IMG/VR virus record: IMGVR_UViG_3300028591_000100
Location: 1-64,000 of that record
Length of the DNA: 64,000 nt
DNA from: a virus
Lineage: Duplodnaviria > Caudoviricetes
Strand: one strand, 5' to 3'
Shown here: positions 3,697 through 44,220 of the stretch, one piece after another
How positions within the stretch are numbered: the stretch's first letter is position 1
How the letters are laid out: every line of letters starts with the position of its first letter
Notes under the pieces: model-generated
What the model was told of the DNA's origin: nothing
What the model saw: the letters and a program-made list of their open reading frames with translations, nothing else
Databases searched by the model: none
Position numbers and translations under genes: made by a program

Positions 3697-3947
3697 GAGA
3701 ATTAATTATATCAAACTATGATTGCGGTTGTGAATTTAAAGCTGTAGTTATTATTGATAATCAACCAGAGATAGTTACTGCGCATCGCGAACGCGATATG
3801 CAAGAGTATGATTTATATGATCTTGACAGCAGCTGGTTTGACACCAGTCGCATCTCTAAAGAAAATCAATCAATACAGCTATTTGATAGAGTTGTTTACT
3901 GCTCCAACGGCGGTATTCAAGTTTTTTGGAAAGGAAAGGACTACTAA
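3693..3947 (+). CDS. hypothetical protein
   Basis: GGAGG RBS, ATGA overlap. Confidence 0.7.
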   Translation: MRELIISNYDCGCEFKAVVIIDNQPEIVTAHRERDMQEYDLYDLDSSWFDTSRISKENQSIQLFDRVVYCSNGGIQVFWKGKDY

Positions 3948-8722: not shown

Positions 8723-9883
8723 ATGGAAAATATTATAGCAGTAGATGACATTTTTAGAAACACTGATGCAACTGAAGTTAAGATAAGTTTTAATGGTGAT
8801 AACCGAGACTATTTAGAAGCTTATGCAACTAAAGTAGCTAAGGCTTTTGTAAAATATTTAAATGGTTTAGGCTTTGTAAAAAAAGAAGAGCCTAATAACT
8901 GGACTTATGGCTTAATCAATCCTAAAGATAATGTTTATGCTAGAGTCACTTGCTTTTTTAGAGATGTAGAAATCAATTTCTGGATTGAAAAAGAATACGG
9001 TAGAAGTGAACAATATCTAGACAAGCTTAAGTTCTTAAAATACACTAACCATACTTTTAAATGGTGTTTAGATTACAAAGATAAAAACAACTTAAGCTTC
9101 AGTTCAAACGGCAAGGCTAGAGACCTTTATCAAGACGAAAAGTCCAAAGAACATATGACAAGCGAAGAGCTTATCATTAAGCGTTTTAGAGAAAAATGTT
9201 GGCATAAGCCTGAAGCTAAAATACCTAACTTTAGGCTTTCTATGTCAGATGGTTCTTCAGGTGAACCTCAATACAATATCAAAGACAGAGACGGCAAAGA
9301 GATACTAAACGGCCAGACCAAGTTCTTTAGATATAACGGTTACCTATGCAAAGGTAAAGCATACCACAATATCAATAACATGTGGTGGGTTATTGTCAAT
9401 GACAAGTTCTACACAAACGTTGCTTGCTTTGAATTATTTGATCCAACTGCAGAAGATTTAAAACATAAAAAGCTCAGTCGAAACGTTAAGCCTGCCGCTT
9501 ACTTCGATAAATTCAAAAACAAGTATCCTTTTGAATCTAGCGTAAAAACCTTCCTTTATAATAAAACAGATATTGCAAAGTTAGGTCGCGTATTCACTGA
9601 CTATTGTGAAAATTATTTATTCTTAAACAGGGTAAAAAAGAGAGTCCAAAATATGCCTGAAGAATATTATTGGATAGCTAAAGAAGAAAGTTCCAGAATC
9701 TTCTGCGAGTTAAAAATAAATGGTGAGCGCTTAGAAATTGTTTATCGTCGTCAAAACTATATCATAATTATGGTTAACGACGAGCGCATTCTCGAGATAG
9801 ATTCTCGCATCGTACACTGGGACAAAGAAAAGGTTCAGCAGTGCGTCGACAAATACAGAGCGTTATTCAAACTAATATTCTAA
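8723..9883 (+). CDS. hypothetical protein
   Basis: 386-aa ORF, GAGG RBS. Confidence 0.85.
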   Translation: MENIIAVDDIFRNTDATEVKISFNGDNRDYLEAYATKVAKAFVKYLNGLGFVKKEEPNNWTYGLINPKDNVYARVTCFFRDVEINFWIEKEYGRSEQYLDKLKFLKYTNHTFKWCLDYKDKNNLSFSSNGKARDLYQDEKSKEHMTSEELIIKRFREKCWHKPEAKIPNFRLSMSDGSSGEPQYNIKDRDGKEILNGQTKFFRYNGYLCKGKAYHNINNMWWVIVNDKFYTNVACFELFDPTAEDLKHKKLSRNVKPAAYFDKFKNKYPFESSVKTFLYNKTDIAKLGRVFTDYCENYLFLNRVKKRVQNMPEEYYWIAKEESSRIFCELKINGERLEIVYRRQNYIIIMVNDERILEIDSRIVHWDKEKVQQCVDKYRALFKLIF

Positions 9884-9896
9884 CCCATAAATCAAC

Positions 9897-9921
9897 AGAC
9901 CGTTCATTCGGTCTTTTTTTT
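9897..9921 (+). terminator. intrinsic terminator
   Basis: AGACCG-ttcatt-CGGTCT followed by a T run. Confidence 0.8.
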
Positions 9922-10260
9922 ATCCCCTTTTTTGTCGGTTTTTTCCGACTTGGCTCTTTCCGACAAAACGTTTACCTCGCAGGTCAACTTCGGCTCCAAC
10001 GGCTATACCCAGCTTCCTAAACAGTACCGTCTCCTTTTTTACCTGCCCAAGTAAATATTTGGATTTCCAGCTACAGCCGTCTCTGGTATACCTGTGGGTA
10101 AAACAGTACCGTCTTCTTTTTGGCCAGTTTCAGGCGATTTTACGAGGTTTTGCTGGAGGGAGGATAAATTACAGGGGGAGAAGGAACAGAGGGGGAGGAA
10201 GAGGCAGACAGGGAAATGTAGGTCGGGGAGTGACGACTGACACGGAAGCCTTATAGCTAA
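9922..10260. other. non-coding island A: pyrimidine-rich then purine-rich, with direct repeats
   Basis: AAACAGTACCGTCTYCTTTTT twice (about 10019-10040 and 10101-10121); G/A-rich run 10155-10230; no credible ORF. Confidence 0.6.
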
Positions 10261-10304
10261 CGGGGCTTTTCATAAAAGGTGTAAATTAGGTTTTATTACA
10301 CCTT

Positions 10305-11400
10305 TTCCGCTCTCATGAACCCTTCGGGGCAAATGGGGGAGTTAGCTCTCGGTGCTTGTAATAACAGGCATCTATGAAGCCACATTTGAAGGGCAATGCT
10401 GAGAGGAAGCCAAAACTCTCTAACACTGGTAGCAGCGCTCAAGAATGGGAAAGGGATATTACCTTAAGGTTCTACAACAGACTTTCAGCAACATCGAAAG
10501 TCAGAAATTAGAACTTTCTGGACACAATGATATCCTTGGTGAGGTATGTTGCGCTTTGATTCTGGCGCGTGTCAAATTTCTGACAGTTAAAAATAGGAAC
10601 AGGGCTATAAGTAAGATAGAATAAATCCCGATGCATTATTCATCTAATCCAAGATGTAGAAATGCACTTCTCTATCTCATATTTAAGAAATTTTAGGTGT
10701 GAGAGCTATAGAGGGGCGGCCAAACAGGAGCGGTCGTGACCTGGGAAATTGTGCTGGTTATTTTGATCACACAATTCACAATACAAGTAAGTAACATATA
10801 GTCTAGGATTTTAAGACTGTTACCACGATATATTGGAAAGGTGGCTTCGGCAGTGGACGAATATAGGGCCAGTGAGGTATATGAAACAAGAGAGTTCAAC
10901 AAACTTGCTGAGTATAGCCAATAACGTACAGCCCTCTGTGTTAAAAAATCGTTCCGTAACCCTAGTGACGTAACGACTGGGTTGAGTCGACATGACGGAT
11001 GACTCGTTAAAGCAGTTAAAGCTTAGGATGGAGTAATGTCCATCGTAATTAACACTCGGGGAAGGTTGAGAGGAGAACCTTCCGATAGCTATATTGCAAC
11101 ACAACAAGAGAAGTGAAAGTCTAGTCTTAGACAAGTAGCTAATCAGTTAGTGTTGACTGTCCAATGATAGCGGATGGCCTAGAGCAAGGCCTTGAGCCAA
11201 TAAGGTATTCGAGATGGGTGTAATGTGTACATCAGATGCCTTTGAGGAAGAAGATATAGACACAATAATGTGGCGTGGAACCATGAGTATAGCGATTATA
11301 CTCCGTTAGACCATATGGGAGCGCTTGATATATCAGCTTGGTGCTATTGGGAGCTAAGTGAGCCAAAAGAAGAGGGGGTGCGAATCCCCCGCTCCTATTC
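10305..11400 (+). ncRNA. candidate giant structured ncRNA (~1.1 kb; GOLLD/ROOL size class, family not established)
   Basis: No credible ORF; nested long-range helices 10342-10352/11347-11357 and 10428-10440/11319-11348; about 20 local hairpins with G-U pairs favouring the + strand; 3' GGGGG-tgcgaat-CCCCC T-loop-like hairpin. Confidence 0.7.
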
Positions 11401-11582
11401 TTTAACAGTTTGTAAGATAAAACTGATTGAAAGATAATTCGCCGAATCTTAGATAACACTATAAATATATAGCGGTTCTAAAGATGAATGGACGATGAAC
11501 TGCGTAAAATATTAGTTCTTAATATTTTTCAAAGTGAAGTGCCTAGGAAAAGAAGTCATTATAAATTTTATATTATTTAACT

Positions 11583-11612
11583 AAAGGGGGCCTTGCGCTC
11601 CCTTCTTATTTT
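11583..11612 (+). terminator. possible intrinsic terminator
   Basis: AAGGGGGC-cttgc-GCTCCCTT followed by cttatttt. Confidence 0.55.
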
Positions 11613-11687
11613 GTATTTATATAATACAGCTCTAAATAGAGCAAACATTAGAGGAGTAGAGCGTGGTAACATGGCTCTTTCCTAATA

Positions 11688-11730
11688 TGCCTCTAAGGGA
11701 CTAACGCTGGTTCGACTCCAGCAAGGGGCA
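11688..11730 (+). ncRNA. tRNA minihelix-like element (acceptor-like stem plus T-arm only)
   Basis: GCTGG-TTCGACT-CCAGC canonical T-arm; TGCCTCT/AGGGGCA closing stem; only about 10 nt where D and anticodon arms would be. Confidence 0.55.
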
Positions 11731-11752
11731 GAAAGATAAAAGGTGATTTATT

Positions 11753-12496
11753 ATGAAAAACATTTTCACATTAGAAAGTGGAGTAGTAACAACTACTCCT
11801 ACAACATCTGAGTTCTTTAATAAAATTAAAGAATTCTATCTAACTATTGTTGTTGGCAAAGACGGCAACAAATACGCTACTGTTGAATCAGTTGAAGACC
11901 CAACCAAATGTTGGTATTCTTCTGCTATTCAAGAATTCGTTGATAGCCATAATGGCTACATTAAAATCAAAACACACAATACTGTACTACAACTATGGTC
12001 TGACACCTATTGTAATAAAACTTACAATCTTATCAAACCTATATTAAACTGGAGAGAGTATAAGTGGACTTACTTCTTCAATGATAGTTTTGAAGCTATC
12101 ATGGATAGAAGAATAAAACTTAACTATGATCCAATAGTGAAGTATTTTCGTGTGTGGTGCTGCAATGATAAGAGCGAAATATATGATGTCGAATTTGGGG
12201 TAGACACCGCCGAAGAAGCTCATGAAGTTCTTCGCCTTCTTATAATGGCAGACATATTCTGCGATGAATGTGGTTGCAAACTTCAGGCTTGCGACCCCGA
12301 TTCCATGGACGACTATTATTATTGTATTACCTTAAAAAATGAAGAAAAGAATTTTACTTTTTCTTTATTTATTAAACGTGGTAGATTAAATATTACTTTT
12401 AATCAAGGTGCTACGTCTATAACAATTGACAAGAATCAAACAGTTGATGATGTAGTCGAGAGACTGCTTCGTTCAAATTTATTCCCTAAGCAATAA
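11753..12496 (+). CDS. hypothetical protein
   Basis: 247 aa, AAGGTG RBS, CxxC motif. Confidence 0.8.
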   Translation: MKNIFTLESGVVTTTPTTSEFFNKIKEFYLTIVVGKDGNKYATVESVEDPTKCWYSSAIQEFVDSHNGYIKIKTHNTVLQLWSDTYCNKTYNLIKPILNWREYKWTYFFNDSFEAIMDRRIKLNYDPIVKYFRVWCCNDKSEIYDVEFGVDTAEEAHEVLRLLIMADIFCDECGCKLQACDPDSMDDYYYCITLKNEEKNFTFSLFIKRGRLNITFNQGATSITIDKNQTVDDVVERLLRSNLFPKQ

Positions 12497-12510
12497 GGAG
12501 GAAAAATAAA

Positions 12511-13068
12511 ATGATGAATTTAATATTATGGCACGAAAGTGCTGAAAAATTTAGCAGTTTTGATTTTACAAAATTCCAAGGAAAGGTGAAAGACCCTTTC
12601 CATGGGGTTGGTTTTCAATTTTATAATCAGAAACCAACGCACAGTTTCTCTAAATATTTATACAAAGTAGAAGTAAAAGACTTTCATGGTATAGATGATG
12701 CTAAAATTGAATTCGATATATTAAAAAAAATAGACACCTTAACAAGAGAGTGTCTCCTAAAATGTCTAACCCCCGAAGAATATGATAGCTTTACCCTTGA
12801 TGGGTTCTTATTCTTCCTTCCTGCTGAACATGAGTGGGAATATAATACAGCAACACGACCAGAAAAAATGATTCGTTTATGGAACCATTGGTCTTTCTTT
12901 ATTATAACTTATTGTGATAACAATACAATACAAGAGTATTGTGATAAACTTGTTGCAATCACTGGAAAAGACGGATATTATTGTGAAGAGTATGGTTACT
13001 CTGTAATCTTTAATACCCATAAACTCCATATTATTAAAAAACTTCACTTGAAAGGAGGTGAAAGATAA
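12511..13068 (+). CDS. ADP-ribosyltransferase-like (ART-PolyVal-type) protein, divergent
   Basis: N-terminal LWHES..KFSSFDF...HGVGFQF...YLYKVEV and C-terminal GKDGY resemble the YHGT..FxxFD...GxGxYF...GxDG ART pattern. Confidence 0.5.
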   Translation: MMNLILWHESAEKFSSFDFTKFQGKVKDPFHGVGFQFYNQKPTHSFSKYLYKVEVKDFHGIDDAKIEFDILKKIDTLTRECLLKCLTPEEYDSFTLDGFLFFLPAEHEWEYNTATRPEKMIRLWNHWSFFIITYCDNNTIQEYCDKLVAITGKDGYYCEEYGYSVIFNTHKLHIIKKLHLKGGER

Positions 13069-13211
13069 TGAAGAAGGCTTATAATAAAATGTCTTTAATC
13101 GACATCGTTGGTAAAGACAAGGCTAAGGCTCGTTTTGACTCACACAAGTCTAAAGCGAAGGCTAAGGCTAAAGCTTTACAAAAAGAATCAAAATATAAAC
13201 TAACTTACTAG
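13068..13211 (+). CDS. 47-aa Lys/Ala-rich basic micropeptide (not in ORF track)
   Basis: AAAGGAGGTG RBS, TAATG coupling; MKKAYNKMSLIDIVGKDKAKARFDSHKSKAKAKAKALQKESKYKLTY. Confidence 0.7.
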   Translation: MKKAYNKMSLIDIVGKDKAKARFDSHKSKAKAKAKALQKESKYKLTY

Positions 13212-13228
13212 TTAGTTTTAAATAGCAC

Positions 13229-13312
13229 GTGCTTATTGAGCGAAACCCGCTGAGATAGCTTGGTTTGCACGTTGGTTGGTGGTTATCCAATTTAAAACCA
13301 CCTGCTCAGCAC
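13229..13312 (+). ncRNA. candidate structured leader RNA with pseudoknot
   Basis: GTGCT/AGCAC, GAGC/GCTC, AAACC/GGTTT, GGTGGTT/AACCACC stems; loop CCAA can pair with upstream TTGG. Confidence 0.45.
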
Positions 13313-13348
13313 ATATTAAAATTTTATGAACATAAGGAGGATATAAAA

Positions 13349-14323
13349 ATGATGTTCGAAGATATGAGTTTAGTAAATTTAGAAAATCTTGAAAATAAGG
13401 AAGGTAAAAAAACAATGGAAAAAACTATAAAATTAACTACAAAAAAATCAAATTTGGTAAAATTCGCTAAGATTCAATTCTTAGGAATTTTATTGATAGC
13501 TGCTGCTATGATTATAGTAGCTTTAATTATTAATAATAATAAAACAACAAATACTGTTACAATTGAAAAAGAAATAAAGGTTGTAGATCAAGCCGCAACA
13601 GAACAAGAGGCTCAAAAGTTGTTTGATGCTTATGTGGCAAATTATCAACCAGAAGTAATCGAAAAGACTGTTGAAGTCGAGAAGATTGTGGAGGTCGAAA
13701 AACCTGTTACAATTACTGAAACTGTCGAAGTCCCAGTAGAAGTTGAAAAAACAATCTACGTAGACAAACCTGTTGAAGTAGAAAAAGTTATTACCGTTGT
13801 TGACCAACAACAAGTTCAACAACTTGCTACAGAAATGGCTAATGCCATGTATATGGCTTACAAAGAAGCTTATACTGCTCAAGTTAATGAAGCCGCTACT
13901 CAAGCTGCTATTGATACAAAAACAGCAGAATTGCAAGCAGAATATACTCAGCTTATGAGTGAATACATTGCAAAAGCAGACGCCGAAAAGGTTGCTACAT
14001 TAGCAACTGAAATGGCAAATAATATGTTTGAACAATTCAAACAAGATTATGTTGTCGAATATGCAGAAGCACAAGAGGCAGCTAGAGTTGCTAATACTTC
14101 TGTTATAAGAGTATTGGTATATACACCAGAAAGTTATTTCTTCCTAGAGATAACAGGTTCATTACACGATGAACTAACATGGGATATCATTCTTGAAGCT
14201 TTACAAGCTGACGCTCGCTTTGATGGTCTAAAAATCAAGAAGATTGAACACAAAGATGCAGTAGAAACTTTTGTTGGACGCGATTTCGATTCAACAAGAG
14301 TTATCCATACTATATACAAATAA
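13349..14323 (+). CDS. single-pass membrane protein with PVEVEK repeats and internal helical repeats
   Basis: AAGGAGG RBS at about 13334 (alternative start 13415); TM FLGILLIAAAMIIVALII; VEKPV/VPVEVEK repeats; ATEMAN twice. Confidence 0.85.
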   Translation: MMFEDMSLVNLENLENKEGKKTMEKTIKLTTKKSNLVKFAKIQFLGILLIAAAMIIVALIINNNKTTNTVTIEKEIKVVDQAATEQEAQKLFDAYVANYQPEVIEKTVEVEKIVEVEKPVTITETVEVPVEVEKTIYVDKPVEVEKVITVVDQQQVQQLATEMANAMYMAYKEAYTAQVNEAATQAAIDTKTAELQAEYTQLMSEYIAKADAEKVATLATEMANNMFEQFKQDYVVEYAEAQEAARVANTSVIRVLVYTPESYFFLEITGSLHDELTWDIILEALQADARFDGLKIKKIEHKDAVETFVGRDFDSTRVIHTIYK

Positions 14324-14332
14324 GGTGATTAT

Positions 14333-14506
14333 ATGAATAAAATCTTGGGGTATGATATAGCTCTTACCAAAATTTATCCAGATGAAAAAGTGGCAAAAGG
14401 ACAGATAAATATGTTTGACCCCGTTGTGGTGGTTGAACGTGTTTCAGTGCCACAAAAAATAAATTTAGAAAGGCAGCCTATAAAGCCTATGACAGGAAAG
14501 TTGTAG
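14333..14506 (+). CDS. 57-aa small ORF whose stop codon lies inside RNA motif copy 1 (not in ORF track)
   Basis: AAGGTG RBS; MNKILGYDIALTKIYPDEK...PIKPMTGKL. Confidence 0.45.
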   Translation: MNKILGYDIALTKIYPDEKVAKGQINMFDPVVVVERVSVPQKINLERQPIKPMTGKL

Positions 14507-14558
14507 ACTAACAGTAGGAAAGAGAGGTGGCTTCGGTTGCCTCTCGCCTGGACTAAAT
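14463..14558 (+). ncRNA. three-way-junction RNA motif, copy 1
   Basis: GCAGCCTATAAA-stem-TAACAGTAGGAAAGAG-stem(cUUCGg loop)-CTCTCGC. Confidence 0.65.
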
Positions 14559-14565
14559 GTTGAAA

Positions 14566-14661
14566 GAAAGATATAAAGCAGCCTATAAAATCTATGGCGC
14601 ATGTCGTAGGTTAATAGTAGGAAAGAGGGATGGCTTTGTCGTCTCTCGCTTTGTATCTTTC
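14566..14661 (+). ncRNA. three-way-junction RNA motif, copy 2
   Basis: Same junction sequence, different stem sequences that still pair; 14-bp closing helix. Confidence 0.65.
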
Positions 14662-14951
14662 GTTGAGCATTTAGCTCAAGAAAGGAAGTGGTAATATGGC
14701 CACACAAGACGAAACACTCTTAGATGAGGACTCAGAATCTTTTTGTCACGCTGAATTCAATTTTACAGAGACAGCTATATCTTTAACTGGTGCCTGTAAG
14801 AGTTTAATGTTAGCAAGAGGATTTTTGGCATGCCACTACCGCGCGGCGGAGGTGGGTGCGATGAGCTAAAAACCAAAACAATTTCATAAGTAAAACAAAA
14901 ATCAAAAAATATTTAGCGTAGCAAGTGCCTACGCGGAAAGAGAGGAAAAAT

Positions 14952-15392
14952 ATGAAAACTTTAGAAACTATTTTAGAAAACTATGAGGGAATGGAGACAT
15001 TAGACGCACGTCTAGGTAGGCGTCTATGTCAATTTTTAACCATTGAACAAATGGCGAAAATTGGTTTCACTTTCCAAGATAAGGAAAGCGAACAAAATCA
15101 TAAGCCAATCGCTTGGACAGAGGAAAATGTCCTAAAGCAATTAAAAGAAGATTTAGAATTTGGTATTGAAAAGGCTACACATCACCGTGGTTTATCAGCA
15201 GGCATGATGTGGGAAGTCTGTCATGCGTGGTGTGAAGTATTGGAAAATGGTTTAGATAAAGAATTTGATCCACACAGCGATGCGGATTATGGTTATTATG
15301 GTGACAAGCTATTCAAAGCTATAGATAAAAAGTACAACTTTGGCTTAGTTAAACCAAACACTTTCAATAAAGAATTTTATCGAGAGTGGTAA
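14952..15392 (+). CDS. hypothetical phage protein
   Basis: GAGG RBS, start moved to 14952. Confidence 0.85.
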   Translation: MKTLETILENYEGMETLDARLGRRLCQFLTIEQMAKIGFTFQDKESEQNHKPIAWTEENVLKQLKEDLEFGIEKATHHRGLSAGMMWEVCHAWCEVLENGLDKEFDPHSDADYGYYGDKLFKAIDKKYNFGLVKPNTFNKEFYREW

Positions 15393-40487: not shown

Positions 40488-40500
40488 AATATGATATAAT
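40472..40500 (+). promoter_or_regulatory. possible sigmaA promoter
   Basis: TTGCGT-N17-TATAAT with TG extended -10. Confidence 0.55.
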
Positions 40501-40659
40501 ATAGAAAGGGGTGATGCGATGATATGAGATTATTGGTAGTAGGACTAATAGTAGGAGCTGTTGTGTTAACGCTATTCTTTAATTCGGTTAACTCAAAATA
40601 TGAGAAACGAAACAGAAGACGCAAATAAACACAACAAATATTTCAGGAAGGAGGACTAA

Positions 40660-40860
40660 ATGGGATTATATCTCGTAATTTTAATAGTAGCAGCTTTAGC
40701 TATCGGAGTAACAATTAAAGAAGTTATAGACATCTATCGCTGTGCGGGGGCCAACACCCCTGCGGAGGATAGATCAAGCACGGCGCTTGTGATTTTCGCA
40801 ACGCTGATCTTAATAACTGTAATTGGTCTCATCATAGTTATAATTAGCTCTATTAAATAA
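40660..40860 (+). CDS. small two-TM membrane protein
   Basis: AAGGAGG RBS; two hydrophobic segments. Confidence 0.75.
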   Translation: MGLYLVILIVAALAIGVTIKEVIDIYRCAGANTPAEDRSSTALVIFATLILITVIGLIIVIISSIK

Positions 40861-40873
40861 AGCTACTATAAGG

Positions 40874-40901
40874 AAGCCCAGGGCACATGCTCTGGGTTTT
40901 T
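40874..40901 (+). terminator. intrinsic terminator ending the + strand block
   Basis: AAGCCCAGGGCA-ca-TGCTCTGGGTTT followed by T. Confidence 0.75.
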
Positions 40902-40959
40902 CCTGTCCTATATATACTAATAAAAAAGATCCAAAAACTACAATATAATTTAATATGTT

Positions 40960-41600
40960 TCAAACAGTGAACTAGAACTTAGTTCTAGTCCTGTTCTTTG
41001 GTTATCTGGTCTTAAATACTAGGTAGCTGAAGAAGAGGACTAGATAATCTAGTATCAAAAACTAGCTTCTCAAAGCGCCGAAGGCGCGGGGGTGGGTGGT
41101 CGGGGGAGTAGTATTTTATTTTCTGGGGGGTATTTTTTTTAGCGTAGGGGGGGGGAGCTTTTTTCGTAGACGGGGGGCCGTTTTTTCTTCCGCGCGCCGC
41201 AATTTTTTCAGGGGGGACCCCCTTTTTTACCTAAACCGCCGCCGATTTTGCGTACGAAGTCCCCTTTTAGCGTACGTCCACCCCTAAAATCGCCTCCTAA
41301 AGCCTTTTTTATTTAGCGTAGGTATAATTTATCCTGTTTCCCCCAAAATCGTCTCTATCGTCCTAAAACACCCCTAAAACGAGCTGATACGCGTTTCGTC
41401 GACTCTCTTTACGTACGTGCGCACGCCCCTACCTTTTAATATAAGGCCCTTTTTAGCCCCGCCAGGCCTTTTTTTCTTTTCTGCCCACCCCTTTATTTAT
41501 CCTGCCCCTGCCCCGCAGCCCCTAGCAGCCGTATTTAGCGTACGAGGTCATCTAGTATTGAAAACTAGATAGCGTGAGCTTGAAGACTAGGTGCCCTGGT
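40960..41600. other. non-coding island B at the strand-convergence point (candidate origin, packaging site or terminus)
   Basis: G-rich then C-rich; TTTAGCGTA x4; T-tracts about every 21 bp; CTAG-bounded repeats. Confidence 0.6.
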
Positions 41601-41604
41601 AAAT

Positions 41605-41630
41605 AAAAAAAGAGGACCCTCTAGTCCTCT
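41605..41630 (-). terminator. intrinsic terminator ending the - strand block
   Basis: AGAGGAC/GTCCTCT hairpin preceded on + strand by an A run. Confidence 0.75.
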
Positions 41631-43405: not shown

Positions 43406-43452
43406 GCTTTCCTCCTAAGTTAAAAATTTAAGTTAAACTTTTCCTTATCCAC

Positions 43453-43484
43453 TTATATTATAGCAGAATAAAAGTAAAAGTCAA
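43453..43484 (-). promoter_or_regulatory. phage promoter class A
   Basis: TTGACTtttacttttATTCTGCTATAATATAA. Confidence 0.85.
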
Positions 43485-43785
43485 GGCTAGAATTAAAGTA
43501 AAGAGGATAAAAAGAAAATAAAAGAAAGAAAGAAACAAAGAAAGAAAAAGTATATATATAAATATATATACTAAAAAGAAAAACAGGAGCAAGCCCCTCA
43601 CTACGTTCGGAGAAATCAAAACTTCCTCGGACTTCGTCCCGAGCGTTAGTTGACGGAATGTCGCTTTCGCTTTTTTCGCTAACGCGCGGAGGCTCACGCG
43701 TACCCTTTCCGCTTCAGTCGGTCCCTAACCAAGCTACCGCAGGTCAGTGACCTCCTTACGCGTGGGTAATTTCTGAAAAAATGGA

Positions 43786-44025
43786 TTAGACGCCAAACAC
43801 GTAAAGTGTTAGGAATACGTAGGTCAAGATATGCAGAGATAGGACGATGGCGAGACCGATGCATCCTGTAAGGAAATCACGAACGGATTCAAAACGTCCA
43901 CGAAGAGGTCTGCGGTCTCTGAAGATGTCAGCGAGGGCCTCAATAAGAGCTACGGCTAGAATTAGCGCGGCAATGCCTAATATAAATGTGTAAATGCTCC
44001 AAAGCACCCATCCAAATGTGATCAT
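43786..44025 (-). CDS. two-TM membrane protein
   Basis: GGAGG RBS; two hydrophobic helices. Confidence 0.75.
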   Translation of the reverse strand: MITFGWVLWSIYTFILGIAALILAVALIEALADIFRDRRPLRGRFESVRDFLTGCIGLAIVLSLHILTYVFLTLYVFGV

Positions 44026-44216
44026 TCTTCTTCACCTCCGTCGTCTTCCTCGTCCTCAGTTTCGTGGTCAGAGTAGTCTTCGTCTGACGCATTTTCGTGG
44101 GAACGAATGTCCTGAAGGTAAGCACCGATGCCGTAGCCGCAAATAAATGCGCCAAATCCTGTGCAGACGATGATTTCTATTAGCCACCATACTTCCATAC
44201 TAATAACTGTGTTCAT
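44022..44216 (-). CDS. small membrane protein with acidic tail
   Basis: one TM plus D/E tail. Confidence 0.7.
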   Translation of the reverse strand: MNTVISMEVWWLIEIIVCTGFGAFICGYGIGAYLQDIRSHENASDEDYSDHETEDEEDDGGEEE

Positions 44217-44220
44217 GTTT

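What the first reader, a model, noticed from the sequence alone, without database searches (positions are those of the whole stretch)
10260..14930. An RNA-dense island that may be one ribonucleoprotein system
Seen: within about 4.7 kb, all on the + strand, lie the giant RNA, a tRNA minihelix-like element, a 247-aa unknown, an ART-like gene, a Lys/Ala-rich micropeptide, a pseudoknotted leader, a single-pass membrane protein and two tandem three-way-junction RNAs. Comparable RNA structure is nearly absent from the rest of the window. The 12-mer AGGTGGCTTCGG occurs both inside the giant RNA (about 10839-10850) and in motif copy 1 (about 14525-14536), each shortly after GGAAAG. Established: OLE RNA acts together with a membrane protein (OapA) and small RNA-binding proteins. 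Inference: the island could encode a membrane-tethered RNP or a set of decoy RNAs expressed at the start of the 10-41 kb block.
Basis: inference. Interest (0 to 1): 0.8.

Follow-up and report, generated by a model that had tools for sequence, protein, structure and literature searches.

The report
Swappable large phage RNA locus
A 155-kb phage that already carries a ROOL RNA also has a separate gene for a large structured non-coding RNA; related phages replace its middle with unrelated sequence but keep its ends, a T-loop module and a tRNA-like minihelix, while the neighbouring proteins change, so it does not look like one fixed RNA-protein machine.

Summary
Window 9884-11752 is non-coding and GC-enriched. 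The tRNA-like minihelix, the two tandem three-way-junction (3WJ) RNAs, the 47-aa basic peptide, the single-pass membrane protein and the shared 12-mer are all real. The "pseudoknotted leader" is not supported, the ART call is only a lead, and folding energy does not single out the island.

Fifteen related metagenomic loci, three on 132-159-kb contigs, share one architecture:
- a promoter-like box;
- a polypurine tract full of Shine-Dalgarno-like GGAGG motifs;
- two leader hairpins;
- a 1.2-1.6-kb non-coding core;
- a T-loop module;
- the minihelix, followed by an RBS and a gene.

The core occurs in at least six forms with no mutual sequence similarity. The T-loop module, the leader hairpins, the minihelix and a shared 3' module all show compensatory base changes. 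No Rfam family matches, yet a genuine ROOL RNA lies at 118 kb in the same genome.

The flanking genes are shuffled. The first gene after the minihelix belongs to five different families, the ART-like gene is unique to this phage, and the 3WJ pair occurs only in one close relative.

Best reading: a self-contained large-RNA gene, a tRNA-like punctuation element and an independent 3WJ element, not one RNP. Function is unknown. The scan has not seen this on other DNA.

The parts
9897..9922 (+). Intrinsic terminator of the upstream gene block (hairpin plus T8). It marks the start of the RNA locus.
   Evidence: The same hairpin type sits at the same place in L083.
10019..10140 (+). Conserved promoter-like box (..TTTTTACCTG..AGTAAATATTTGGA) with an 82-nt direct repeat of AAACAGTACCGTCTyCTTTTT. 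Candidate start region of the RNA transcript.
   Evidence: Repeat D6. The box is conserved in L082, L084, L083, L080, L106, L107 and L109 and unique in the 155-kb genome. Promoter activity is inferred.
10155..10230 (+). Polypurine tract (88% purine per 60 nt) with about a dozen overlapping GGAG/GAGG/AGGA motifs. Candidate SD-like 5' stabiliser or 30S-binding tract.
   Evidence: Composition, not sequence, is conserved in L083, L084, L085 and L080. It is one of only two such tracts on the + strand of the genome.
10252..10306 (+). Two leader hairpins. Hairpin 1 is 10252-10272. Hairpin 2 is 10274-10306 and carries the invariant AAAAGGTGTAAATTA.
   Evidence: Hairpin 1 keeps pairing with different sequences in L083, L085 and L084. 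Hairpin 2 keeps its 5' strand and pairs with different 3' strands.
10307..11348 (+). Variable core of the large RNA (form A, so far seen only in this phage), including a hairpin followed by the TTGAGCCAATA box at 11176-11202.
   Evidence: No ORF, GC 0.41. No similarity to cores B, C, D, E (Smith-Waterman z about 0). The box also occurs in forms B, C, D, E.
11349..11396 (+). T-loop module: outer helix GGGAGC/GCUCC, an A-rich internal loop, and a 5-bp stem with loop UGCGAAU.
   Evidence: The same module lies 283-331 nt upstream of the minihelix T-arm in five core forms. The outer helix differs in each but stays complementary.
11584..11613 (+). Terminator-like hairpin with a T-rich tail. Probable 3' end of the large RNA in this phage.
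   Evidence: Conserved with compensatory changes in L079. Absent from the L005/L080/L085 variants.
11652..11683 (+). Hairpin directly upstream of the minihelix.
   Evidence: Present in all loci with covarying stems.
11688..11730 (+). tRNA-like minihelix: 7-bp acceptor-like stem, invariant 11-nt linker AAGGGACUAAC (possible D-loop mimic), T-arm, discriminator G, no CCA. It lies about 20 nt upstream of the RBS of ORF 11753.
   Evidence: Across the 12 copies aligned, 99.3% of cells are paired and one pair swaps U-A to C-G. It is the most conserved sequence of the locus.
11753..12496 (+). 247-aa protein of unknown function (called F0 here). It is the first gene after the minihelix in the window and in L003, L005, L079 and L084; a distant 19%-identical relative sits there in L080.
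   Evidence: No Pfam or PHROG family.
12511..13068 (+). 185-aa protein, a possible ADP-ribosyltransferase-like accessory gene unique to this phage.
   Evidence: Atlas neighbours. No sequence support. Absent from all relatives.
13068..13211 (+). 47-aa basic Lys/Ala-rich protein (called F9 here), always directly upstream of the membrane protein where both are present.
13349..14323 (+). 324-aa single-pass membrane protein (called F1 here).
   Evidence: Homologues at 43-73% identity lie in L106-L109 at the same relative position.
14333..14506 (+). 57-aa ORF with a strong RBS. Its last 44 nt overlap 3WJ copy 1.
   Evidence: A 57-aa gene is called at the same place in L108.
14463..14558 (+). Three-way-junction RNA motif, copy 1.
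14566..14661 (+). Three-way-junction RNA motif, copy 2. Its P3 hairpin with the U-rich 3' strand of P1 looks like a terminator.

Best explanation
Window ~10.05-11.75 kb is a self-contained gene for a large (about 1.4-1.5 kb) structured non-coding RNA of a family that is not in Rfam.

Its parts, in order:
1. a promoter-like box;
2. a polypurine tract full of Shine-Dalgarno-like motifs. By analogy with STAB-SD and the SP82 polypurine stabiliser of Bacillus, this would hold a 30S subunit near the 5' end and protect the RNA from 5' exonuclease (inferred);
3. two conserved leader hairpins;
4. a core of about 1 kb that related phages replace with unrelated sequence of similar length and GC content;
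5. a conserved T-loop module;
6. in this phage, a terminator.

A hairpin and a tRNA-like minihelix follow, about 20 nt before the RBS of the first downstream gene. The most likely role of the minihelix is as an RNase P (and possibly RNase Z) processing site. That would separate the RNA from the early mRNA, or give that mRNA a structured 5' end. It also serves as the homologous joint at which downstream genes are swapped (inferred).

The tandem 3WJ pair at 14.46-14.66 kb is a separate, lineage-restricted RNA element. It is probably a cis-acting leader or attenuator, or a pair of small stable RNAs.

The proteins in between are interchangeable early accessory genes, not fixed partners of the RNAs. 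What the large RNA does is unknown. My best guess is a stable trans-acting RNA of the early host-takeover or counter-defence phase, with a core under diversifying selection.
For: SHOWN
- Non-coding. In core form B there is no codon periodicity (p = 0.28), and 1-2-nt indels separate relatives.
- GC content: 0.40-0.45 in every form, against 0.33-0.35 for the genomes.
- Architecture: the same layout is seen wherever the contig reaches that far, across the 15 related loci, three of them on 132-159-kb phage contigs.
- Cores: forms A, B, C and D/E share no sequence (z about 0). L109 adds a further form.
- Compensatory changes:
  - T-loop module, with five different but complementary outer helices;
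  - 3' module, 13 of 110 pairs changed on both sides among 3 sequences;
  - form B, about 22 one-sided pair-preserving changes and 1 double change against about 6 breaks;
  - leader hairpins;
  - minihelix.
- Position: the T-loop hairpin sits at a fixed 283-331 nt before the minihelix T-arm.
- Processing: core form E starts with a twister-sister ribozyme above Rfam's threshold (41.5 against 34 bits). So at least one form is a processed RNA.
- Gene swapping: the first gene after the minihelix varies, and the minihelix occurs twice in L005 and L080.
- 3WJ pair: conserved in tandem in L108, with 4 of 30 pairs changed on both sides.

ESTABLISHED KNOWLEDGE
- STAB-SD and polypurine 5' stabilisers, and RNase J1 (Agaisse & Lereclus 1996; Hue et al. 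1995, as listed in PMC3997798).
- An acceptor/T-arm minihelix as a minimal RNase P substrate (own knowledge).
Against: - There are no expression data.
- Folding energy does not distinguish the stretch from coding DNA.
- Form A is known from this genome alone, so its own core has no comparative support.
- The promoter-like box fits no sigma-70 consensus.
- The family is small: 15 metagenomic loci, several nearly identical. The covariation statistics are therefore modest, and RNAalifold structures lean towards kept pairs.
- The minihelix has one extra nucleotide between the T-stem and the acceptor strand, and its cleavage is untested.
- The host is unknown, so the Firmicute-type RNA-decay logic is an assumption based on low GC and strong GGAGG/AAGGTGA ribosome-binding sites.
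Confidence: 0.6

Rival explanations
1. One reading: the large RNA, the minihelix, the 3WJ RNAs and the proteins encoded at 11753, 12511, 13068 and 13349 form one membrane-tethered ribonucleoprotein, in the manner of OLE RNA with OapA.
For: All features lie on one strand within 4.7 kb. The 47-aa basic peptide plus membrane protein pair lies downstream of the RNA locus in the window and in L085, L106, L107 and L109. A 12-mer is shared by the large RNA and 3WJ copy 1.
Against: - The gene sets between and around the RNAs are shuffled.
- The ART-like gene is unique to this phage.
- The 3WJ pair is missing from L106, L107 and L109, which keep the RNA locus and the peptide/membrane-protein pair.
- The 50%-identical homologue of the 247-aa protein in L004 has protein genes upstream and neither RNA nor minihelix.
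- There is no OLE RNA and no recognisable RNA-binding or Oap-like domain.
- The 12-mer is not in the same structural context in its two places.
Confidence: 0.07
2. The large RNA is a counter-defence or host-takeover decoy or sponge, for example for an RNA-binding or tRNA-directed host factor or for ribosomal subunits. Its core diversifies in an arms race.
For: - It sits among small early accessory genes, one with AcrIF11/ART-PolyVal-like neighbours.
- The core is replaced outright between otherwise similar phages while the ends are kept.
- It carries tRNA-like and T-loop elements and a tract of SD-like motifs.
Against: No target is known and no defence system can be tied to it. Core replacement could also reflect relaxed constraint. 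Nothing here tests binding.
Confidence: 0.25
3. The stretch is not one giant RNA. It is a string of independent RNA modules (leader, ribozyme-like or other domains, T-loop module) that are processed into several smaller RNAs and exchanged separately by recombination.
For: - Mosaic joints lie inside the region. L003 joins the B core to another 3' module that it shares with L086 and L109, whereas L005, L080 and L085 carry a short 3' end instead.
- A self-cleaving ribozyme is the first module in form E.
- L109 has three T-loop hairpins.
- Predicted folds are mostly local domains.
Against: No internal promoter or terminator stands out on the + strand between 10.3 and 11.58 kb. Total length is kept at 1.2-1.6 kb in all forms.
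Confidence: 0.2
4. The RNA works like ROOL or GOLLD: an RNA-only multimeric assembly encoded by phages next to tRNA or tRNA-like genes.
For: It is large, ornate-looking, phage-borne and next to a tRNA-like element. Like GOLLD, it has a conserved 3' part and a variable 5' part (PMC12286853). The same phage encodes a true ROOL.
Against: No ROOL hit to this stretch at E up to 10, and no large-RNA family among the four chance-level hits when all 4227 Rfam families were scanned at that threshold. Wholesale core replacement is hard to reconcile with conserved quaternary contacts. No symmetry-related kissing loops were identified.
Confidence: 0.1
5. The stretch is a non-functional or purely cis-acting spacer: a long regulated leader or a recombination hotspot whose sequence is free to drift. 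Only the flanks (promoter, minihelix, RBS) would matter.
For: The cores are unalignable between forms, the MFE z-scores are ordinary, and the conserved minihelix/RBS joint clearly takes part in gene shuffling.
Against: - Length and raised GC are kept in every form.
- Compensatory changes occur within form B, the 3' module and the T-loop module.
- One form carries a ribozyme.
- Drift in a 35% GC phage would be expected to erode GC content and length.
Confidence: 0.12

Closest known systems
ROOL and GOLLD RNAs (large ornate RNAs of phages and prophages, often next to tRNA islands)
   Same: Phage-encoded, several hundred to over a thousand nucleotides, GC-enriched, many helices and T-loop or tetraloop modules, and adjacent to a tRNA-like gene. 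As in GOLLD, the 3' part is more conserved than the 5' part. The same genome holds a true ROOL at 118.4-119.0 kb.
   Different: - No match to the ROOL model, nor any match above chance to an Rfam family.
- About twice the size of ROOL.
- The core is replaced by unrelated sequence between relatives.
- It lies in the early accessory-gene region rather than in the tRNA island.
- It has its own SD-like polypurine leader.
OLE RNA with OapA, OapB and OapC
   Same: A large non-coding RNA with a membrane protein and a small basic protein encoded within a few kilobases.
   Different: No OLE match and no Oap-like domains. The membrane protein has one predicted span and is separated from the RNA by variable genes. 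Co-occurrence is no tighter than ordinary phage gene order.
tRNA-like processing signals (MALAT1 mascRNA, tRNA punctuation of mitochondrial transcripts, the tmRNA tRNA-like domain, bacterial Y RNA tRNA-like domain)
   Same: An acceptor-like stem stacked on a canonical T-arm without an anticodon arm. It is placed exactly at the border between a long non-coding RNA and the next transcript, and is repeated between genes in L005 and L080.
   Different: It is contiguous (not split as in tmRNA), about 43 nt long, without CCA, with one extra base at the T-stem/acceptor joint. It sits 20 nt before an RBS. Cleavage is untested.
STAB-SD and the SP82 polypurine 5' stabiliser of Bacillus
   Same: SD-like purine-rich sequence near the 5' end of a transcript with no start codon behind it (references in PMC3997798).
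   Different: The tract here is 70-200 nt with many SD-like motifs instead of one. The host and the 5' end are unknown.
PeSL-type mobile regulatory cassettes of T4-like phages (own knowledge)
   Same: A short conserved structured element with translation signals, repeated in front of different early genes and coinciding with recombination joints (L082 against L084).
   Different: The element here is a tRNA mimic, not a promoter plus stem-loop.
AcrIF11 / ART-PolyVal ADP-ribosyltransferases (for ORF 12511)
   Same: Nearest neighbours by language-model features and by predicted structure in the ESM Atlas. It is a small phage early protein.
   Different: No Pfam hit even at E = 10, no PDB sequence hit, and the catalytic motif was not identified.

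Membership tests
ROOL RNA (RF03087) | Match to the covariance model at or above 99.1 bits | tested here: not met
   No hit in 9700-15100 at E up to 10. The only hit in the whole genome is 118417-119040 on the minus strand at 273.7 bits.
GOLLD, OLE, HEARO, raiA and all other Rfam 15 large RNAs | Match to any of the 4227 covariance models | tested here: not met
   Window at gathering threshold: 0 hits. Region at E up to 10: only four chance-level hits. Relatives' cores: none apart from the twister-sister in L083.
OLE ribonucleoprotein | OapA-, OapB- or OapC-type protein next to the RNA | tested here: not met
   Pfam and PHROG scans of all ten neighbouring proteins give no significant family.
Canonical tRNA | Cloverleaf with D and anticodon arms | tested here: not met
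   ARAGORN and the Rfam tRNA model call nothing at 11688-11730. Only 11 nt lie between the acceptor strand and the T-stem.
tRNA-like minihelix (RNase P minimal substrate) | Acceptor-like stem coaxial with a T-stem that carries a T-loop of consensus sequence | tested here: met
   7 + 5 bp with loop UUCGACU. 99.3% of cells are paired across the 12 copies aligned, with a U-A to C-G swap.
tRNA-like minihelix (RNase P minimal substrate) | Cleavage by RNase P at the 5' end of the acceptor stem | not testable with these tools
   Needs an enzyme assay or 5'-end mapping.
Twister-sister ribozyme (RF02681) | Match at or above 34 bits | tested here: not met
   Met in the relative L083 (41.5 bits, at the start of its core) but not in the window.
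ADP-ribosyltransferase (PF18760 ART-PolyVal, PF26151 AcrIF11) for ORF 12511 | Profile match and catalytic motif | tested here: inconclusive
   No Pfam hit at E up to 10. Atlas feature score 0.94 and structural TM 0.55-0.67 to ART clusters. My own model was unusable.
Intrinsic terminator or attenuator (for the 3WJ copies) | GC-rich hairpin followed by a U-tract | tested here: inconclusive
   P3 of copy 2 with its U-rich tail passes the scan. However, that tail is the 3' strand of P1 in the conserved three-way fold.
STAB-SD-type 5' stabiliser | SD-like sequence near the 5' end that binds 30S and lengthens RNA half-life | not testable with these tools
   Sequence feature present. The 5' end and the half-life are unknown.

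The most novel reading that the evidence does not exclude
This is a new class of large (about 1.3-1.6 kb) phage non-coding RNA. It has constant ends: an SD-like polypurine leader at the 5' end and a T-loop module plus tRNA-elbow-like minihelix at the 3' end. Between them lies a cassette-like core that phages exchange for unrelated structured sequence, in effect an RNA counterpart of a hypervariable accessory-gene slot. The cores would act as decoys or sponges against host factors. The invariant T-loop module and minihelix would provide processing, stability or docking.
Probability: 0.3. Interest if true: 0.85.

Novelty: new variant of a known kind. Interest (0 to 1): 0.66.

Why it matters
Large structured RNAs of phages (ROOL, GOLLD) are among the least understood RNAs in biology, and only a handful of classes are known. 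This phage carries ROOL, a skipping-rope RNA inside a further 3-kb non-coding stretch, and the locus described here. That makes it a natural system for asking what such RNAs do.

The locus has three features that make it experimentally tractable:
- constant ends around a core that nature has already swapped at least six times;
- a tRNA-like element sitting exactly at the RNA/mRNA border;
- a self-cleaving ribozyme at the start of one variant.

If the cores prove functional, this would show that phages diversify RNAs in the same way they diversify anti-defence proteins. If not, the locus still documents a tRNA-mimic element that serves as a joint for shuffling early genes.

Tried and rejected
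- Coding under another genetic code: rejected.
- Small proteins inside the core: no codon periodicity, and frame-breaking indels between relatives.
- Known RNA families: none.
- BLAST of the RNA against 50,697 phage records: nothing. The large neighbouring protein also gave nothing.
- IMG/VR scans:
  - with the 247-aa and 155-aa proteins: no relatives;
  - with the 386-aa upstream protein: 66 loci that share only a widespread domain, not followed up;
  - with the minihelix pattern and the leader 17-mer: only unrelated tRNAs or chance hits.
- GTDB genomes with the minihelix pattern: none.
- Alignment of core forms: MAFFT and k-mer sharing at chance level; Smith-Waterman z about 0.
- MFE z-score scan: it does not single out the RNA.
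- Structure of ORF 12511: unusable model. Structure of the 247-aa protein: job not accepted.
- Exhaustive profile search with the 247-aa protein: only phage-like unknowns, plus one spurious hit to a 2511-aa protein that carries a Mesothelin (Pfam) domain.
- Search for the 3WJ motif elsewhere in the genome and in distant relatives: only the close relative L108 has it. The weaker hits are P3-like UUCG hairpins.
- Shared structure in the spacer between the 47-aa peptide gene and the membrane-protein gene: none.
- No literature describing this locus was found.

Full report
**Context.** The window is the first 64 kb of a 154.7-kb viral record that CheckV rates as complete. Its GC content is 34.9%. 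Genes between 0 and 41 kb are on the + strand.

**The observation.**
- Non-coding stretch: between the stop of ORF 8723-9883 and the start of ORF 11753 lie 1869 nt without a + strand ORF over 65 aa. No single stop-codon reassignment opens a frame. GC rises to 0.40-0.47 against about 0.33 on either side.
- Known families: no Rfam 15 family matches the window at gathering threshold. Scanning 9700-15100 at E up to 10 gives only four chance-level hits.
- The 12-mer AGGTGGCTTCGG occurs exactly twice in the window, where 0.04 are expected.
- The two units of about 100 nt at 14463-14558 and 14566-14661 fold into the same three-way junction (z = -3.9 and -8.9 on the + strand). Eight of 33 pairs are changed on both sides between the copies.
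- The stretch at 11688-11730 forms a 7-bp stem enclosing a 5-bp stem with a consensus T-loop. No tRNA is called there.
- In contrast, the "pseudoknotted leader" at 13212-13348 has z = -0.8.
- A sliding MFE scan gives the large-RNA stretch the same mean z (-1.5) as the first 22.8 kb overall (-1.47), so thermodynamics does not single it out.
- The window has other GC-rich non-coding gaps, at 40.5-41.6 kb and 43.4-44.2 kb.

**Relatives.**
- Phage GenBank records and IMG/VR hold nothing similar.
- The 247-aa protein encoded at 11753 has five homologues in metagenomes. Their contigs (L003, L005/L006, L078, L079) all carry the minihelix wherever upstream sequence is present. The 50%-identical homologue in L004 has protein genes there instead.
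- A metagenome scan with the minihelix sequence added L080-L086.
- A search with the membrane protein encoded at 13349 added L106 and L107 (159-kb and 151-kb contigs), L109 (132 kb) and the close relative L108.

**Architecture.** All these loci share one layout:
1. terminator of the upstream gene;
2. a conserved box (..TTTTTACCTG..AGTAAAyATTTGGA);
3. a 70-200-nt polypurine tract rich in GGAGG;
4. a hairpin whose sequence differs between lineages but always pairs;
5. a second hairpin built on the invariant AAAAGGTGTAAATTA;
6. a core of 1.2-1.6 kb without ORFs, GC 0.40-0.45;
7. a 3' part, then a hairpin, the minihelix, an RBS and a gene.

**The core is swapped, not merely diverged.**
- By BLAST the cores fall into form A (window only), B (L003, L005, L080, L085), C (L079), D (L082, L084, L106, L107), E (L083) and a further form in L109.
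- Best local alignment scores between A, B, C and D/E are no better than for shuffled sequence (z between -1.0 and 1.7). Shared k-mers are at chance level.
- Joints also lie inside the region. L003 combines the B core with a 3' module that it shares with L086 and L109, whereas L005, L080 and L085 end differently.

**Evidence that the region works as RNA.**
- Within form B (four sequences, 90-97% identical), substitutions show no codon periodicity (15/19/25, p = 0.28), and 1-2-nt indels are common.
- In the RNAalifold consensus of form B, about 22 one-sided changes keep pairing and one pair is changed on both sides, against about six breaks. This count leans towards the predicted structure.
- The shared 3' module of L003, L109 and L086 (78-93% identical) has 13 of 110 predicted pairs changed on both sides.
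- A hairpin with the loop UGCRAKU (T-loop-like) lies 283-331 nt upstream of the minihelix T-arm in forms A, C, D and E and in the L003 module.
- That hairpin is nested in an outer helix that differs in every lineage yet stays complementary: GGGAGC/GCUCC in the window (11349-11396), GACGG/CCGUC, GGUGG/CCAUC, UCUAG/CUAGA and AUAUAG/CUAUAU. An A-rich internal loop lies between the two helices.
- A hairpin followed by TTGAGCCAAUA lies upstream of it in most forms.
- Form E begins with a twister-sister ribozyme above Rfam's threshold, on the same strand, about 55 nt after the leader.
- Together these results show a transcribed, structured RNA with a conserved frame and a replaceable middle. Form A itself has no second sequence, so its own core is supported only by analogy.

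**The minihelix.**
- It is the most conserved sequence of the locus (86% mean column identity over 12 copies).
- 99.3% of cells pair. One pair swaps U-A to C-G, and another shows U-G, C-G and U-A.
- The 11-nt linker AAGGGACUAAC is nearly invariant. Its GGG could mimic the D-loop contact with the T-loop (inference).
- It always lies about 20 nt before an RBS, but the gene behind it differs. For reference I label the gene families F0, F4, F7, F9 (the 47-aa peptide), F1 (the membrane protein) and F20.
  - F0 (the 247-aa family): window, L003, L005, L079, L084, and a distant relative in L080.
  - F7 (a 69-aa family): L082, L086, L106, L107, L109, and after the second copy in L005.
  - F4: L081.
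  - F20: L085.
  - A different gene again: L083.
- L082 and L084 are 99% identical through the RNA yet differ from the RBS onwards. The element therefore marks a recombination joint.
- L005 and L080 carry it twice, between genes.
- An acceptor/T-arm minihelix is the classical minimal RNase P substrate (own knowledge), so processing at this point is the simplest role.
- In the window and in L079, a terminator-like hairpin (11584-11613) lies between the RNA and the minihelix. In L005, L080 and L085 it does not. Co-transcription may therefore differ between variants. This is unresolved.

**The polypurine leader.** It resembles the SD-like 5' stabilisers of Bacillus: STAB-SD and the SP82 polypurine stabiliser, which block 5' exonuclease by holding a 30S subunit (references listed in PMC3997798). 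This is an inference that assumes a Firmicute-like host.

**The 3WJ pair.**
- It is unique in the genome.
- It is absent from L106, L107 and L109, and from the contigs fetched earlier (L003-L005, L078-L086). There only P3-like UUCG hairpins score.
- It is present in tandem in L108 (97 bits each). With four sequences, 4 of 30 pairs are changed on both sides and only two cells are unpaired.
- Copy 1 overlaps the end of a 57-aa ORF; a 57-aa gene is called at the same place in L108. ORF 14696-14869 is not called there.
- Its function is open. P3 plus the U-rich 3' strand of P1 looks like a terminator, so a cis-acting attenuator or riboswitch-like role is as plausible as a pair of small RNAs.

**The proteins.**
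- None has a Pfam family. Only the two genes flanking the island match PHROG families, both of unknown function.
- ORF 12511 has AcrIF11 / ART-PolyVal neighbours in the ESM Atlas but no sequence-level support. It has no usable model and no homologue in any relative.
- The 47-aa peptide is conserved in six loci and always precedes the membrane protein when both are present.
- The spacer between those two genes keeps its length (about 125-140 nt in four of the five loci compared; 186 nt in L085) but not a common structure.
- The peptide/membrane-protein pair lies 1.3 kb after the minihelix here and 3.1-3.4 kb after it in L106 and L109, with different genes in between.

**Verdict on the interpretation.** The RNAs are real, and the stretch is genuinely RNA-rich. 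The comparative data, however, show three separable things:
- a self-contained large-RNA locus with a tRNA-like border element;
- an exchangeable set of early accessory genes;
- a lineage-restricted 3WJ element.

The OLE analogy fails every membership test that could be run. Protein binding remains untested.

**Wider setting.**
- The same genome encodes a true ROOL RNA (273.7 bits) next to tRNA-Val.
- It also encodes a skipping-rope RNA inside a further 3-kb non-coding gap next to tRNA-Trp.
- ROOL and GOLLD are phage RNAs of unknown function that lie near tRNA islands and form cages (PMC12286853).
- The present RNA is the same kind of object but not a member of either family.
- I found no paper that describes it.

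Noticed in passing
Same genome, outside the window: G000 118417-119040 (- strand); locus L094 / L105:918-1541: A genuine ROOL RNA (RF03087, 273.7 bits against a 99.1-bit cut-off) next to tRNA-Val. tRNA-Thr, -Gly and -Trp lie within 3 kb.
   Followed up: yes
Same genome, outside the window: G000 about 122225-122307 (- strand); L105:4726-4808: A skipping-rope RNA (RF02924, 66.8 bits) inside a 2.96-kb stretch without ORFs (121362-124321, GC 0.39) that ends at tRNA-Trp. The rest of that stretch matches no Rfam family.
   Followed up: partly
L083:7029-7112 (- strand as stored): A twister-sister ribozyme (41.5 bits, cut-off 34) is the first module of the variable RNA core in this relative, about 55 nt after the conserved leader.
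   Followed up: partly
L079:1863-1918: A weak twister-P1-like match (30.6 bits, below the 67-bit cut-off, E = 8e-4) in the spacer after the homologue of the 247-aa gene.
   Followed up: no
L082 against L084 (and L106, L107): The RNA regions are 99% identical, but the first gene after the minihelix differs: a 69-aa family in one, the 247-aa family in the other. The recombination joint therefore lies at the minihelix/RBS.
   Followed up: partly
window 43488-43556, with non-coding gaps at 40488-41620 and 43406-44220: This is the second polypurine tract of the genome (at least 87% purine per 60 nt). The two gaps are further GC-rich (0.43) stretches without ORFs of 90 aa or more.
   Followed up: no
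L083 (stored 2345-2430 and 3826-3914, -), L004:2622-2682, L106:11861-11950: Recurrent intergenic hairpins of the type GGAGrUGACUUCGGUCGyCUC resemble P3 of the 3WJ motif and the shared 12-mer. They are probably a common terminator or stabiliser hairpin of this phage group.
   Followed up: partly
window 11753-12010 (residues 1-85 of the 247-aa protein): The N-terminal 85 residues or so also occur in shorter proteins of 90-194 aa (P0009, P0010, P0012, P0013), which suggests a mobile domain.
   Followed up: no
L109:7118-7270: Three T-loop-type hairpins (GGUGAAAGCC, then GGUGCAAGUCC twice) lie within 150 nt in this relative's RNA, so the module can be multiplied.
   Followed up: no
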